A stretch of 64,000 nt of DNA from Ophelia neglecta (lineage: Eukaryota). Positions 9,001-21,000 of the stretch are shown piece after piece (position 1 is the first letter of the stretch; each line of letters opens with the position of its first letter). Location of the stretch: positions 129,394,001 through 129,458,000 of the forward strand of contig OZ260661.1 of the NCBI GenBank assembly GCA_965285935.1, read 5' to 3'. Made by a program: the position numbers.

Positions 9001-12000
9001 ACATAAAATGAAGGAATTAAGCCCGGAATGAATCGGATTCAATCAAGTGTTTATTCATTACCAACTGGTGTCTTTACTCTCCATAACAATCGGCCAAAGT
9101 GCAACACGATGTATCCTCCAAAATGTGAATATACCTGGGTGAAATAATTTCCTGTAAATGTTCAGTGAGTCACCATACAATCGATGACTTTCGTTAAGAA
9201 TATTCATGAGAAAGTTTTATTTTAATTTATTTTAACGTCTCTTTTTAGTGATCCATTCCGACTCTTCAAATATATTTTCTTGGTAATCAATATTGGTTTA
9301 TTTTCCGCGTGCGTCCGCCCCCGCTTTTTCTTATTCAGACGATACAATGCACAGCTGGAATCCAGACCAAGAACATAGGCACGTCCTGTTCTGTACAGCG
9401 CAGGAAGTGTATTTCATGCCACCATCATCCTCAATGGCCAATACTTCTTAAAATAGATACATCTCTTGCTTGAGGCGGAAATAATGTTTTGTCCGATTAA
9501 CCCAAATGTATCCAATGTTCCGTTTCTATTCAAACCTTTGGCAATTAGGGCTTCTGATAGCATTCCTTCTTTGTGTCATTAGCCGCTACACCTAATTGAA
9601 CTCGAAAAGGCCGGTGTATGATCACTGCAAGTGAGACTACGCACGGCTCTATATGAGACCCGATGATATTTTTGTATAAGAAGAAGGTCGAATAACAAAT
9701 ATTGAATCAAATTCATTTTACATAACTTCATTTCAAAATTGCTTCAATTGTGGACAATACATCGTTCATGTATCAGCACCATTCGTTTGATTGAAAAAGT
9801 ATTTTTTCATGTTGAGCCGACATAAAAACCATGTACGTCATCCTGCTTTGTTTAGGAAAACAGGAGTGTATACCCTGTTGATCATTGAAAGGGCACACCA
9901 TGGCACCAATTACATCGCACTTATAAAATGAGAATGGTAATTGATAATATGTCTGGTATTTAACCATGCTCTGGTCCAGGTTTCATTCACGTTTACCATG
10001 CCAGGTTAATTTTGGGCACAATGATACATCTTCAATACATTTAATCTTGTTTAGTGACATTCCCTTAGTTATGTTTCCACGTGGTACTGCACACGGGTGT
10101 TCACAAAAGTACACAGTACTGAGGTAGGGATGAATACATTGAAAACTTGCCCAGGCAATTGAGTTTTATTAAGTTTTACATTTCACAAATTGTCAACAAA
10201 TGCATTGCTTTAAATAATTAACAAACGTATTGCATTAGATGATTAACAAATGTCAAACTGTTCAGTGTCTATGCATATGGCAGTTTGGTGACATATAAAC
10301 GTGAGCCTTTTATTCGTCGAGTAGAGTACAGCTGTCTCATGTTATATATGGTTATGACTCGCCTGTAAAAAAAGACTTTTGGAACTTATATGTGGTCATT
10401 TATTACGGGTGCGGTTAGGGCGCACAAGCTCTGTTTTCGGTGAGAGTTATATGCTCCCCCCCCTCCCTCCCTCCCAATGTAATTCAAAGATCATGCCAAT
10501 TATGTGACCCCCCCCCCAATCAGAGACACCACTGACCAACTCCTTTCCCCTCTATATCAATTAAAAAACAACGTGAGTGGATACTCTGCACACAACTCAA
10601 GAATCGATCAATGTATCGAGCACCTGCAGCCACAGGGATACAAGTATGCTATTGGTAAAAATATTAACAGTAGGAAATCTAACCTGACCTTCTGGTTTAC
10701 TGTGTACTGTCTCTCCTAGATTTCACACTATGGTTGGAATTATGAAATCCATCCGCTCTGTTAAAATCGCAGCTTCAATAATATATATGTCTGGAGCAGG
10801 TAGCCGAGAACAAAATTGATAAAATGTGTCGACGCGATCAAATTACAATAGCTGACTGCTGTGACAGAATAATCCGATACTTTGTCACTGATTGTCGGTT
10901 ATTTATTATATATTGATAAAAATGGAGGGCATAATATCCAGACAGGCCATTATGAATATTTAATTCTATAACCTACGATGATATTAAATGATTATAGGAA
11001 ATGCATATTTTCACTATGTTATGTGTTCGACTGGTAAAAACACCTACGACTGCAAAATATAATAATTTCTAACTATTTGTGACAAAATATGTGTATCGAT
11101 GGCAGTTATAATGAAATTGCACAAGACAAAATACTCCAATCTATTCCGTTGATGTATCTTTTTACCTGTTTTGGCCAGGTATATTTCCCGGAATTGGGTT
11201 TTATCAGAAATCAGAAGACAATCTCATACTAGCTCCTGTCGGTTGTTGTTCTATCATGTATTCTATCCCTGACCGAATTCGAACCTGTGGACATGTTGTA
11301 GTTGTGAAAGGAGTGACTGTTCTTATATTTTTCTATTGACTTGATCAAAGAAAGGACAATCGAGGTAGTTAATGATTCCCTCCCTGAGGAATTTGTATAC
11401 GTACATGAACAGCAATGTCACGTTGGATATCCGCCCACGGACCTGTCTGACGGTAGGTGTAATTTATTTTCTGCCTGTCGGCAGCAGCCCACTCAAAAGA
11501 TATCCGAGAAGTTGACAACTTAAACGGGAATAGTAAGGATGTACTAGATCAACAATATATTTTCTTATTTGTTCTGAAACAATTCACCGTTACATCATTG
11601 AGGACCGGGCTTACATAAAGAAGTTAGACATATATGGCTTTTAACGCACATTCATCGTTTTGCTGTAGAGTGAGAAGGCACGGTACCTAAATTGATCCAA
11701 TATGATGTGCAAGTTAGTTAATACGTTTATTCTACGCCTCTTCGAACTTGGGCAAGTTCCCCTTGCAAATCATTGTGTTAAAGGATTATATTTTAATTCA
11801 CTATGGTTAGTTCCTGGATTACGTGGCAAAATAACGGCCACCAAATGCCTTTCGGTGAAGTAAGGAAATGTGATTGGTTTTGATTTATTGCCTATTAATT
11901 ATTGCATACTAATCACTTAATACCCTAGATGCAGAACTGCACTATAAATGTCACCATGTATAATCATTTAATATAACTGTCACAAATATGGTGTGATTCC

Positions 12001-18000: not shown

Positions 18001-21000
18001 CAGATAAAGCAAACTCTTCAATCAAGAATATTCAATTAAATTGGTCCTAAATTACCAGGCACCAGCAGCCACAGACCCAATTATTACACCTAAATACACC
18101 AAGCTTTTGCTCCGAGACAGAAGATACACATGTAACGAAATAAGGTACATGAAATGGCAATTCATTACCTAGTTCAAGGAACGATCCCTTGTCCTTTAGC
18201 TTGGGGTTTATATCATACTCCGAATGATACCAGGTGAAAAATTTCATGTGGACCTTCTCACCACAGAAAGAAGAAGCTAAATGCATATTTTAAAAAACGG
18301 GAGTGGATACGCGGCAGACAAAGGCAAGTCTTTATTCGAGAATAGTCCATTGAATCGGCCCGAAATCATCAGGAACCAGCAGCCACATCCGTAAATCTAT
18401 CTCCAACTCGAATATGGTAAATACACTTGTAATGCAAATAATAATAAAAACATAAATTGGATATAACTTACATTGAGAATTAGTCACTTCTTTTTCCACG
18501 TGGTCAATCTGAGCCCTCACATGAGCGGTTATGTGCTTCTGTTCAATTTACCATGAGACAGGTAGTGGTGACTCATTTTCTTGCGTTATTCTCTTGGGCA
18601 GGTTAAGCTATGGAAGAAATGGGGTTAAGCACATGTTGGCGGCACCTATACCAATCTGTTGATATATACATATGAGAGATAAAAATTTATATTTTTATTA
18701 TTTTATATTTTTAATAAATTTAGCCGTTATTATCTTACCCCCCAAACCAACGTAGATCACTGGAAATCATTTATATGAAATTGAGAAAGAATCATTCGCT
18801 AAATTGCACAGATAGCTTTCAATATGTGTTGTAAGTAAATTTTAGCCAAATAAACTAGAGTTGGGTTTCTAGATAGAGTATGAATATATTTTCTCTCGTT
18901 AGTGAGTAAAACTAATTCAACTCTCACTTGTAGAGCGTCGTAAATCTGGCTAGTAAATCCAGCAAATCCTTTGGCGGCCTGCCTGTATATTTCTGTGTTT
19001 AAGCCTTTGTTTAAGCTGCTGGAAAGGGCAAATTTACCAGATGATATATCGAATGCGTCCTTATTTAGAATTCAATGATGGGCGTGACATTTGGCTTTCA
19101 ACAAAACTGGCTTTCTTCATAACACATTTTCTTCATCCTGTATTTTTACAGATAGCTGAAATGCTTAATCATAGAATAAGCAAGCTTATTAGAACTAATT
19201 GCGAACCATTAAGCCAATATTTAAGACCGTGCCTAAATTAAAAACCGTGACCGGCCTAAATCACATGCCAAATTGCATCAAACTTTAACTCGTACCTAAT
19301 TGGGAACTCAATTATGCAAACGTTGGGTGTCTTTGGCGATTGTGTCTAAGTAGACATTGTTTATTCAGCAGTACAAACAAATACATTACCTGCACTTACT
19401 TTACACATGGATACTTGAGTTGTAGGATGTAAAACACAATAAACGTTATTTGAACAAAGCAGTACCTCTACGTGCTGTGGTCAATGTTCACATATAGGTC
19501 ACGTTAAGGACAACTCGAACAAATTTTTCACTACGTATATTTTTCACACATGCACATCTTGCACCCTAGCGCATTGATTGACAATAATACCTTACTCTGA
19601 GTTGGCATTTTCAGCTCCCCCATTGTCAGCCTGTGTTTATCAAGAACAGGCTTTTCATTATATATGTGAGAGATTTTTTTTCAGGATGTACTATAGAGTC
19701 TTATAAAGTTTCAATTTCTAATCCTGTACGTTTGCTTAAGAACTCGATGTTTGCAATGAGATTTCGTGCTATATATACAAGCGCGCTTTTGTTGGAGCTT
19801 GACCATAAACTCGCTTACAAATTTTAAAGGATATGGCATAGAAACAAACCATTCCTCCCTTCTCTGGGCGCATTGTGCATCAGCTACTTGAGCGATGTAC
19901 AGAGTTTCCTTATCTTTTGTCACGTTTATTGTTTCGCCAAATTATCAAATAAAACAGGGCCATATGGGACCCCTCACCGTGCCTACTAAACGGGAATAGA
20001 TTACAGGCAGACAAGACCAAATCATTCCAACAAATAGCCCATTAAATGGATCCTAAATCATCGTTAACTGTGACAAACGGGGACTCAAATGTCCCAACAG
20101 CAAATAACAATACCTTAGAGAGGACACTGAATTAAAACTGGCGAGTCGTTACATTGTAAGCCTACACAATACGACAGATAACCGCTAGTATTTACAACAA
20201 CGACAGTCCATTGCTGTGTATTGCGGTATATTTGGTTAGTAATTTGCAGATCTCTGTTATCCGGTGTGTCTATCGGTTACTATACCAGGACAGTTTAATA
20301 TAGGTTATTTATTATAAACCACATCAGATATATGCAGATTCTTTCCGAAAGGAGACCATTATTATATATTAAGTAGGGGAAGCTGATTACCTTGAAGTAC
20401 ATGCTGAACGCTAAAAATGAAGTGAAGCTTTGTTGTTTATGAGCAATGTAGAAACATCCCTGTTAATTTGACTAATTAAAACAGGACATGCCAGCAGTCT
20501 ACACTGGGGCAAACTGCGGTTGGAATTTATAGAATGCTCAATCACAGATTTAATCGTACAATAGTGAAAATAACGGATATTTCCTTCACCTACAGGTGTT
20601 CTCCGTGTGCTTACACATAACCATAAAACCAAACAAAAACGTGGGCGTAGAAACCAATCCATTTTTGGGTTTTAATGTGTCTTTTATGTTCAATAAAAGG
20701 TTATTTATACTAGTAACTGTAAAACCTCCAACATATATTATTAAAATGAATACATGTCAAGTTATTCTTATTCAAACTCTGGCGTTGAATAATTTATAAA
20801 AACTGTTTACATTGCCGTCAGCATCATATATTATTCTCTTTTAATGAAGATATCGGTGAAGATTTGCCACTTCGAGCGTTTTTTGGGTCTATAGAAACCT
20901 TTAACTTGTATACAGAGCTGCGCTGCTGAATATGCTTCCAGTACCCACCAAAGCAGCAGCGCCATAAACACCTCAAATCGATCCCAGCGCTGAATGAGAA

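What the first reader, a model, noticed from the sequence alone, without database searches (positions are those of the whole stretch)
10727..18459. Complex recent rearrangement: 90-bp direct copy fused to a 1.05-kb inverted copy, joined at a MITE target-site duplication
Seen: block 17323-18459 consists of a direct copy of 10727-10816 followed by the reverse complement of 13367-14732. The two parts overlap by 7 nt (ATAAAAT), which is the TSD next to the MITE end. GATAAAAT, the reverse complement of that TSD, also lies at 10818-10825, just after the first X copy. Inverting ~10817-14725 in place would recreate the X-MITE adjacency seen at 17412/17413. Inference, two models: (a) a segmental duplication followed by a ~3.9-kb inversion with one breakpoint at the MITE end (alternative transposition), or (b) a multi-step template switch (FoSTeS/MMBIR) using that microhomology. 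The arms could form a large stem with a ~2.7-kb loop.
Basis: partly seen in the sequence, partly recalled or inferred. Interest (0 to 1): 0.7.

Follow-up and report, generated by a model that had tools for sequence, protein, structure and literature searches.

The report
Composite duplicated block joined at transposon flank
A 1.1-kb patch of non-coding animal-like DNA was stitched together from two nearby sequences, one of them copied backwards, and joined at a 7-base match next to a small transposon; this is an ordinary scar of error-prone DNA copying or repair.

Summary
Block 17323-18462 is a direct copy of 10727-10816 (95.6%) fused to an inverted copy of 13364/7-14732 (97.3%). The two homologies overlap in ATAAAAT (17406-17412).

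That heptamer is 7 of the 8 bases of the target-site duplication of a 226-bp element with terminal inverted repeats (14500-14725). GATAAAAT does lie at 10818-10825.

- **Most likely origin:** one replication or repair-synthesis event with template switches (the FoSTeS/MMBIR class) built the block from the two older sources. No real inversion is needed. A strand switch between the 8-nt inverted pair GATAAAAT (10818) and ATTTTATC (14726) gives the X-MITE adjacency directly.
- **Direction of copying:** the MITE has a perfect 8/8 duplication only in arm 1, and base 17405 follows X. Arm 2 carries one hybrid of two old tandem units that arm 1 keeps.
- **Rivals:** duplication plus transposase inversion needs extra coincidences and a second transposon end, which is absent.
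- **Added detail:** a strong hairpin begins 2 nt beyond the arm-1 breakpoint. The arms' outer edge lies at the end of a dispersed about 185-nt repeat.
- **Age and content:** divergence of 2.8% means the event is not very recent. No gene, RNA family or protein domain was found.
- **Limits:** the organism is unidentified, and neither reads nor other haplotypes could be checked.

Interest is low to moderate.

The parts
10727..10816 (+). X1, the source of the direct 90-nt copy. Its last 7 nt (10810-10816) read ACAAAAT.
   Evidence: blastn 95.6% over 90 nt to 17323-17412; alignments.
10818..10825 (+). GATAAAAT, the exact reverse complement of the MITE's target-site duplication, 1 nt after X1. With 14726-14733 it forms an 8-nt inverted pair 3.9 kb apart.
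   Evidence: 10 matches in the window against 6.2 expected, so a match within +-10 nt of a given site is about 3e-3 by my arithmetic.
10826..13363 (.). Single-copy spacer U between X1 and arm 1. It is not duplicated.
   Evidence: Sensitive blastn finds only itself.
13364..14732 (+). Arm 1, the source arm (1369 nt). It comprises the 5' end of a dispersed repeat 'E', tandem units u1 (13385-13697) and u2 (13698-14010), a third E core (14060-14159), 333 nt of unique sequence, then the target-site duplication, the MITE, and 7 nt of the second duplication.
14492..14499 (+). Inner copy of the 8-bp target-site duplication, ATTTTATC.
14500..14725 (+). 226-bp MITE-like element with terminal inverted repeats of about 45 nt. 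It contains telomere-like CCCTAA motifs.
   Evidence: TIR core found only at its ends. DNA fold pairs the ends: dG -26.0 kcal/mol, z = -2.87.
14726..14733 (+). Outer copy of the target-site duplication, ATTTTATC (perfect 8/8). The arm homology ends after its 7th base (14732).
14735..14830 (+). Strong hairpin whose stem begins 2 nt beyond the arm-1 breakpoint. Its 20-nt arms at 14754-14773 and 14806-14825 match 19 of 20.
   Evidence: DNA fold dG -25.1 kcal/mol, z = -4.55, 0 of 200 shuffles as good.
14734..17322 (.). 2.6-kb single-copy 'loop' between the arms. It holds one copy of a SINE-like family (16738-16929) and an old, diverged E copy (about 17040-17265) 57 nt left of X2.
17323..17412 (+). 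X2, the derived direct copy of X1. Base 17405 (A) follows X1 (10809 = A), not arm 1.
17406..17412 (+). Junction microhomology ATAAAAT, shared by the X homology and the arm homology.
   Evidence: P(7 nt or more) = 5.6e-4, P(5 nt or more) = 6.4e-3.
17413..17638 (-). Second MITE copy, inverted, followed by GATAAAAT at 17639-17646. The flanking repeat here is only 7/8 (AATAAAAT at 17405-17412).
17406..18462 (-). Arm 2, the derived inverted copy (1057 nt), with a single hybrid u1/u2 unit. High identity ends at 18459.
18460..18476 (-). About 17-19 nt beyond the arm that still resemble arm 1's flank (13349-13366) and other E-copy ends, but at only about 79%. This may be the end of an E copy already resident at the recipient site.
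   Evidence: The local alignment runs on to 13352/18473; 5-way alignment; junction print. Suggestive only.

Best explanation
Block 17323-18462 is a derived, composite templated insertion made in one replication or repair-synthesis event with several template switches. This is the FoSTeS/MMBIR class, equivalently break repair by synthesis with template switching.

Inferred path:
1. A 3' end at the site 17322^18460 primed on arm 1 in the opposite orientation. It may have used a resident copy of the dispersed repeat E as homology.
2. It copied 13364/7 to 14732, slipping between the old tandem units u1 and u2 either then or later.
3. It stopped at the foot of a strong hairpin just past the MITE.
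4. Its end, ...ATTTTAT, re-annealed to the complementary heptamer or octamer beside X1, 3.9 kb away.
5. It copied X1 backwards to 10727 and was rejoined to the original site.

The MITE's target-site duplication served only as the microhomology. Transposase need not have acted.

Shown: the two homologies, their 7-nt overlap, the perfect versus 7/8 duplications, the hybrid unit and the hairpin. Inferred: a single event, the order and direction of synthesis, stalling at the hairpin, and priming within E.
For: (1) The X and arm homologies overlap by exactly 7 nt in block 2, while their sources lie 3.9 kb apart. Overlap of 7 nt or more has P = 5.6e-4 in 200,000 random junctions.

(2) Polarity.
- The MITE in arm 1 has a perfect 8/8 duplication. 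In block 2 it is 7/8, and the odd base 17405 = A matches X1's 10809.
- Units u1 and u2 are only about 87-89% alike, so they are older than the 97% arm duplication. Arm 2 carries one hybrid of them.

(3) Divergence of X (3 of 83 unambiguous positions) and of the arms (29 of 1037) is similar. The arm differences are spread evenly: 3.25%, 1.8% and 3.3% in three segments. This fits one event.

(4) GATAAAAT at 10818-10825 and ATTTTATC at 14726-14733 form an exact 8-nt inverted pair. A strand switch between them yields the X-MITE' junction.

(5) A hairpin with dG -25.1 and z -4.55 starts 2 nt after the breakpoint.

(6) All templates lie within 8 kb. Direct and inverted pieces are mixed and the junctions carry microhomology, which are the features listed in the abstract of PMC2621351.

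(7) No target-site duplication flanks the block, and there is no other copy of X, of the unique part of the arm, or of the MITE in 64 kb.
Against: - X1 reads ACAAAAT, so the perfect microhomology is 5 nt unless one substitution or a 9-nt slip is added.
- The other two junctions show about 0-1 nt (J1) and an ambiguous 1-3 nt (J3) of microhomology. End joining rather than annealing may have closed them.
- Both arm ends fall at or near ends of repeats: the MITE plus its duplication, and the E terminus. A pure random-breakpoint model does not predict this, and it hints at transposon involvement.
- An exact 8-mer 1 nt past X1 is about a 3e-3 coincidence unless it was the annealing site.
- A single event, and the empty site at 17322^18460, cannot be shown without another haplotype or species.
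- Reads could not be examined.
Confidence: 0.55

Rival explanations
1. Reader's model (a). A direct segmental duplication of X-MITE'-arm' occurred first. A transposase-mediated (alternative-transposition) inversion of about 10817-14725 then followed in the left copy, with one breakpoint at the MITE end.
For: - Inverting 10817/8-14725 does recreate the X-MITE' adjacency (junction prints).
- The two copies of the 8-mer, at 10818-10825 and 14726-14733, are in inverted orientation at the two would-be breakpoints. A transposase-made inversion would leave its new target duplication in that arrangement.
- AACAAAAT-T-GATAAAAT beside X1 resembles an excision footprint.
Against: - It needs two events.
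- The supposed new target 8-mer would have to equal the old duplication on the other side of the MITE (14492-14499), which would be a rare coincidence.
- Alternative transposition engages two transposon termini (passages of 10.1101/2020.01.07.897926 and PMC8225341). No second terminus lies at any other junction.
- If block 2 were ancestral, its duplication would be AATAAAAT on both sides. Both arms instead have G at the arm side, and arm 1 has a perfect pair.
- The hybrid unit in arm 2 argues that arm 1 keeps the older state.
Confidence: 0.1
2. Two separate events. X2 was already present from an older small duplication. An inverted copy of arm 1 was later inserted beside it by microhomology-mediated end joining. 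A variant is a transposase cut or nick at the MITE, followed by aberrant repair, as the starting lesion.
For: - The microhomology junction is explained equally well.
- The breakpoint lies beside the MITE.
- Duplication-derived microhomology is used in repair of MITE excision sites (PMC4561436; search listing and start of the abstract only).
Against: - X and the arms have similar divergence, and their adjacency would then be a coincidence.
- A cut at the MITE terminus would leave the duplication behind, yet 7 of its 8 bases were copied.
- No autonomous element or transposase domain was found among 140 ORFs.
Confidence: 0.15
3. The arm, or X plus the arm, is one composite mobile element inserted twice. 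Its ends would be the E terminus and the MITE terminus.
For: - Both arm ends coincide with repeat-family ends. An independent E copy at 59111-59289 begins to align exactly at 13364.
- The other arm end is the MITE terminus plus 7 nt.
Against: - No terminal inverted repeat joins the two ends, and no target-site duplication flanks either arm or the block.
- The same 7 nt follow the MITE in both copies.
- X1 is not adjacent to arm 1.
- There is no third copy of the 333-nt unique part or of the MITE in 64 kb.
- The two copies share the inner duplication, so they are not independent insertions.
Confidence: 0.07
4. Assembly artefact, from a chimeric or fold-back read or from haplotype mis-joining.
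For: Inverted duplicates can arise from fold-back reads. No reads could be examined here.
Against: - The arms differ by 2.8%, spread evenly, plus a 312-nt unit difference.
- They are separated by 2.6 kb of unique sequence and joined to a third sequence, X, through a microhomology.
- By general knowledge, fold-back artefacts give near-identical arms with little or no spacer.
- The window has no N.
Confidence: 0.05

Closest known systems
FoSTeS/MMBIR complex rearrangements (Hastings, Ira and Lupski 2009, PMC2621351; abstract read)
   Same: Direct and inverted duplicated pieces are mixed in one block. There is microhomology at a junction, the templates lie nearby, and the endpoints sit next to pre-existing repeats and secondary structure.
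   Different: The scale is small (1.1 kb). The microhomology is 7 nt, against the 2-5 bp quoted in that abstract, and it is supplied by a transposon's target-site duplication. The event is old, fixed in this assembly, and was not observed de novo.
ODIRA, origin-dependent inverted-repeat amplification in yeast (PMC11790251; passages read)
   Same: A new inverted junction is formed by a strand switch at a pair of short inverted repeats. Here the pair is 8 nt long.
   Different: The pair is 3.9 kb apart, not tens of bases as in that paper's examples. [quoted passage not shown] No origin is known here.
Alternative transposition of maize Ac/Ds: sister-chromatid or reversed-ends transposition and composite insertions (10.1101/2020.01.07.897926 and PMC8225341; passages read)
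   Same: An element with an 8-bp target-site duplication sits at a breakpoint of an inverted duplication. The block is composite, holding a transposon and flanking DNA.
   Different: - Only one terminus is near a junction.
- The junction lies 7 nt outside the terminus.
- No new duplication flanks the block.
- The transposon lies inside the block, not at its border.
Mu killer and Ac killer hairpin loci (described in 10.1101/2020.01.07.897926, passages)
   Same: An inverted duplication that includes transposon sequence. It could give double-stranded RNA if transcribed through.
   Different: There is no evidence here of transcription, small RNAs or an active partner element. The spacer is 2.7 kb.

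Membership tests
MITE (non-autonomous cut-and-paste DNA transposon) | Terminal inverted repeats | tested here: met
   The 22-nt core occurs at both ends of both copies and nowhere else, against 0 expected. The ends pair over about 45 nt in the DNA fold.
MITE (non-autonomous cut-and-paste DNA transposon) | Target-site duplication flanking the element | tested here: met
   Perfect 8/8 ATTTTATC at 14492-14499 and 14726-14733.
MITE (non-autonomous cut-and-paste DNA transposon) | Small size with no coding capacity | tested here: met
   226 bp. No Pfam match on overlapping ORFs.
MITE (non-autonomous cut-and-paste DNA transposon) | Many independent copies with different flanks | tested here: not met
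   In the 64-kb window only the two arm copies exist, and they share a flank. Genome-wide copy number is not testable with these tools.
hAT superfamily (suggested by the 8-bp duplication; this attribution is recalled, not tested) | Relation to a hAT transposase or hAT-type terminal motif | not testable with these tools
   No autonomous partner lies in the window. The TIR string was not found in the paper library. Other superfamilies also make 8-bp duplications (recalled).
Alternative transposition product (Ac/Ds type) | Two transposon termini engaged | tested here: not met
   No TIR core at 10817, 17322 or 18460.
Alternative transposition product (Ac/Ds type) | Breakpoint exactly at the transposon terminus, with a new 8-bp duplication at the insertion | tested here: not met
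   The copy carries 7 nt beyond the terminus. The 8-mer beside X1 equals the old duplication, not a new one. No repeat flanks the block.
FoSTeS/MMBIR-type template-switch rearrangement | Complex product mixing direct and inverted copies of nearby templates | tested here: met
   All templates lie within 8 kb.
FoSTeS/MMBIR-type template-switch rearrangement | Microhomology at junctions | tested here: inconclusive
   J2 has 7 nt (5 nt perfect against present-day X1), P = 5.6e-4 or 6.4e-3. J1 has about 0-1 nt. J3 has an ambiguous 1-3 nt, or homeology within an E repeat.
FoSTeS/MMBIR-type template-switch rearrangement | Arose in a single replication or repair event | not testable with these tools
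   Only the similar divergence of X and the arms speaks for it.
ODIRA | Inverted junction at a short inverted-repeat pair | tested here: met
   GATAAAAT at 10818-10825 and ATTTTATC at 14726-14733.
ODIRA | [quoted passage not shown] | tested here: not met
   X and the arm are each present twice, and the spacers U and G once.
Transposon-silencing hairpin locus (Mu killer / Ac killer type) | Inverted duplication containing transposon sequence | tested here: met
   Both arms include the whole MITE.
Transposon-silencing hairpin locus (Mu killer / Ac killer type) | Read-through transcription, double-stranded RNA and small RNAs | not testable with these tools
   No expression data. No Rfam match.

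The most novel reading that the evidence does not exclude
The MITE was not a bystander. A transposase nick or stalled fork at the MITE and its adjoining hairpin started the template switching. Its target-site duplication guided the strand switch. The resulting 1-kb inverted repeat, which contains the whole MITE, is transcribed into a hairpin that feeds small RNAs against this MITE family. That would be an animal counterpart of the maize Mu killer and Ac killer loci.
Probability: 0.06. Interest if true: 0.6.

Novelty: new member of a known kind. Interest (0 to 1): 0.25.

Why it matters
This is a clean, fully resolved small example of how a composite direct-plus-inverted duplication forms. It also shows how the 8-bp repeat made by a transposon insertion can later serve as microhomology for an unrelated copying error.

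It has teaching value, and it matters for annotating structural variants and inverted repeats in this genome. It changes no open question. No gene or RNA is affected as far as the tools can show.

It would matter more if the inverted repeat proved to be a small-RNA source, or if many such junctions at MITE duplications were found genome-wide.

Tried and rejected
- **Known RNAs in the arms or the dispersed E element:** none found. Rfam gave 0 matches at gathering score over the whole window and 0 at E<=1 over 10400-18700. No tRNAs were found. E shows no significant fold (z = 0.18 as DNA, -0.40 as RNA).
- **Coding sequence:** none supported. I scanned 140 of the 218 stop-to-stop ORFs of 60 aa or more (those of 68 aa or more) against Pfam. 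None reached a curated cut-off, and 3 sub-threshold matches look like chance.
- **Protein homologues:** the arm ORF 13849-14088 and an ORF at 52437-52790 that I had guessed to be LINE-like found nothing in the near-length search. Longer and shorter lengths were not searched. The organism therefore stayed unidentified.
- **Tandem Repeats Finder:** it did not report the about 312-nt units. They come from the repeat finder, blastn and nhmmer.
- **A degraded MITE end right of X1:** rejected. The MAFFT pairing matches 14 of 23 bases by my count, far below the 96% of X. Sensitive blastn finds no MITE similarity in 10817-13363.
- **Longer homology left of X1 and X2:** none.
- **The TIR string in the paper library:** 0 papers.
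- **Not run:** the prokaryote genome collection was not used because it is irrelevant to this window. No eukaryotic DNA collection is on hand, so copy number elsewhere, other haplotypes and related species stayed unchecked.

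
Full report
**What is there**

The window is AT-rich (34-44% G+C in 2-kb steps) and has no N. It looks like non-coding eukaryotic DNA:
- Rfam found no family.
- No tRNA was found.
- None of 140 ORFs of 68 aa or more reached a Pfam cut-off. These 140 are the longer part of 218 ORFs of 60 aa or more.

Nothing suggests that the contig is human. The organism could not be named.

Arm 1 (13698-14732) and arm 2 (18441-17406) are 97.3% complementary over 1036 nt. 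The outermost 79 nt (13364-13442 against 18384-18462) are 95% alike. X1 (10727-10816) and X2 (17323-17412) are 95.6% identical. This is the only repeat in the 64 kb that is both longer than 120 nt and above 90% identity. The other long repeats are old families at 76-87%.

**Anatomy of the arms**

Arm 1 is 1369 nt and arm 2 is 1057 nt. The difference is one tandem unit. Arm 1 has u1 (13385-13697) and u2 (13698-14010), which are about 87-89% alike. Arm 2 has a single unit whose first about 60-80 nt, with its upstream flank, follow u1 and whose remainder follows u2. Because u1 and u2 are much more diverged than the arms, the tandem pair predates the arm duplication. Arm 2 therefore lost a unit or never copied it.

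Each unit begins with a copy of a dispersed element I call E:
- E is about 185 nt long. Its conserved core is about 100 nt and ends in a run of T.
- The core profile finds 15 hits at E<1e-3 in the window on both strands. Five are inside the arms and 10 are elsewhere.
- One copy lies at 10563-10638, just left of X1. An old copy lies at about 17040-17265, 57 nt left of X2.

**The MITE**

The element at 14500-14725 (226 bp) has terminal inverted repeats. Their 22-nt core occurs only at the four ends of the two copies, against 0 expected. The ends pair in a DNA fold (dG -26.0 kcal/mol, z = -2.87). In arm 1 it is flanked by a perfect 8-bp direct repeat, ATTTTATC, at 14492-14499 and 14726-14733.

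It meets the structural definition of a MITE. No third copy lies in the window. Assigning it to the hAT superfamily rests only on my recollection that hAT elements make 8-bp duplications.

**The junctions**

On the + strand, block 2 reads X2, then ATAAAAT (17406-17412), then the inverted MITE (17413-17638), then GATAAAAT (17639-17646), then the inverted arm.

- **J2, the X/arm junction.** The heptamer belongs to both homologies. X1 has ACAAAAT at 10810-16, and arm 1 in reverse complement has GATAAAAT. The base before it, 17405 = A, agrees with X1 (10809 = A) and not with arm 1, which would give G. The junction therefore lies inside the heptamer. In 200,000 random junctions drawn from the window, microhomology of 7 nt or more has P = 5.6e-4 and of 5 nt or more P = 6.4e-3.
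- **X1's end.** X1 is followed by T and then an exact GATAAAAT at 10818-10825. X2 can be aligned to X1 either with one C/T mismatch or, with no mismatch in that stretch, with a 9-nt gap that carries the homology through 10825.
- **J1 (17322/17323).** About 0-1 nt of microhomology.
- **J3.** High identity ends at 18459/13367. Three more bases match with one mismatch.

**Direction and mechanism**

Overlapping homology at a junction marks a derived composite. Three facts make arm 1 and X1 the sources and block 2 the product:
- the perfect duplication lies around the MITE in arm 1 only;
- base 17405 follows X;
- arm 2 carries the hybrid unit.

That is correct, but no inversion is needed. GATAAAAT at 10818 and ATTTTATC at 14726 are an 8-nt inverted pair. 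A nascent strand that leaves one template at this motif and re-anneals at the other produces exactly this junction.

I therefore favour one event of low-processivity synthesis with template switches. This is the class described by the MMBIR model, whose abstract lists complex products with inverted pieces, junction microhomology and endpoints near pre-existing repeats (PMC2621351, abstract).

Two further observations fit, though as inference only:
- A strong hairpin (14735-14830; dG -25.1 kcal/mol, z = -4.55, with 0 of 200 shuffles as good) begins 2 nt beyond the arm-1 breakpoint. It is a plausible place for synthesis to stall.
- About 17-19 nt beyond the outer end of both arms still resemble each other and the ends of other E copies, but at only about 79%. 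An independent E copy begins to align to arm 1 exactly at 13364. The recipient site may have had its own E end, which supplied homology for the first switch. This rests on fewer than 20 bases.

**Age**

The arms differ at 29 of 1037 columns. The differences are spread evenly (3.25%, 1.8% and 3.3% in three segments), and 18 of the 29 are transitions. X differs at 3 of 83 unambiguous positions. The two parts are of similar age. The event is not very recent.

**Rivals**

- **Duplication followed by transposase-made inversion.**
  - For it: the inverted orientation of the two 8-mers, and the footprint-like AACAAAAT-T-GATAAAAT beside X1.
  - Against it: it needs a second event. It needs a new target identical to the old duplication. 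It needs two transposon termini, as alternative transposition does in maize (passages in 10.1101/2020.01.07.897926 and PMC8225341), and no second terminus exists.
- **Transposase cut at the MITE end.** It would leave the duplication behind, yet 7 of its 8 bases were copied.
- **Composite transposon inserted twice.** Repeat ends at both arm borders suggest it. Against it: the shared inner duplication, no flanking duplications, no terminal symmetry, and no further copies in the window.
- **ODIRA.** It shares the short-inverted-repeat switch, but not the spacing or the inverted triplication (PMC11790251, passages).
- **Assembly artefact.** This is unlikely given the 2.8% divergence, the unit difference, the 2.6-kb unique spacer and the three-part junction. 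Reads could not be checked.

**Verdict**

This is an ordinary, nicely resolved instance of a known class of rearrangement in non-coding DNA.

What remains open, for lack of any eukaryotic DNA collection, reads or expression data:
- genome-wide copy numbers;
- the ancestral empty site;
- whether the inverted repeat is transcribed.

Noticed in passing
window 13367-13548, 13698-13848, 14060-14159, 17057-17265, 59111-59289, 5949-6036, 27512-27622, 32078-32163, 19988-20067, 47760-47860, 46376-46463, 10563-10642: A dispersed repeat family I call 'E'. It is about 185 nt long at most, with a conserved core of about 100 nt that ends in CCCGTTTTT. The core profile gives 15 hits at E<1e-3 in 64 kb, on both strands. 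It has no Rfam match and no significant fold. Its type (SINE-like, MITE-like or other) is unknown.
   Followed up: partly
window 856-1041, 6059-6241, 16738-16929, 24904-25089, about 29024-29223: A second interspersed family of about 185 nt, with copies 76-85% alike, rich in GGTGGTC/GACCACC motifs. One copy lies in the loop between the arms.
   Followed up: no
window 14735-14830: A near-perfect hairpin with 20-nt arms matching 19 of 20 (dG -25.1, z -4.55). The MITE inserted 1-2 nt from its foot. It may be another small palindromic element. The motif occurs nowhere else in the window.
   Followed up: partly
window 14584-14630 (and the copy in 17500-17560): The MITE interior carries telomere-like CCCTAA / CCCTAACCCTAA motifs (read).
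   Followed up: no
window 12119-12165: A perfect 24-bp tandem duplication, 2.0 copies at 100%, in the single-copy spacer between X1 and arm 1.
   Followed up: no
window 10508-10518, 13167-13181, 16974-16984: Homopolymer runs of 10 or more C or G near the rearranged region (read). They are possible sequencing-error or fork-stalling sites.
   Followed up: no
window 10810-10828: X1 ends in two near-identical 9-mers in tandem, ACAAAATTG and ATAAAATGT. This looks like an old microduplication or an excision footprint and may explain why the octamer lies 1 nt past X1.
   Followed up: partly
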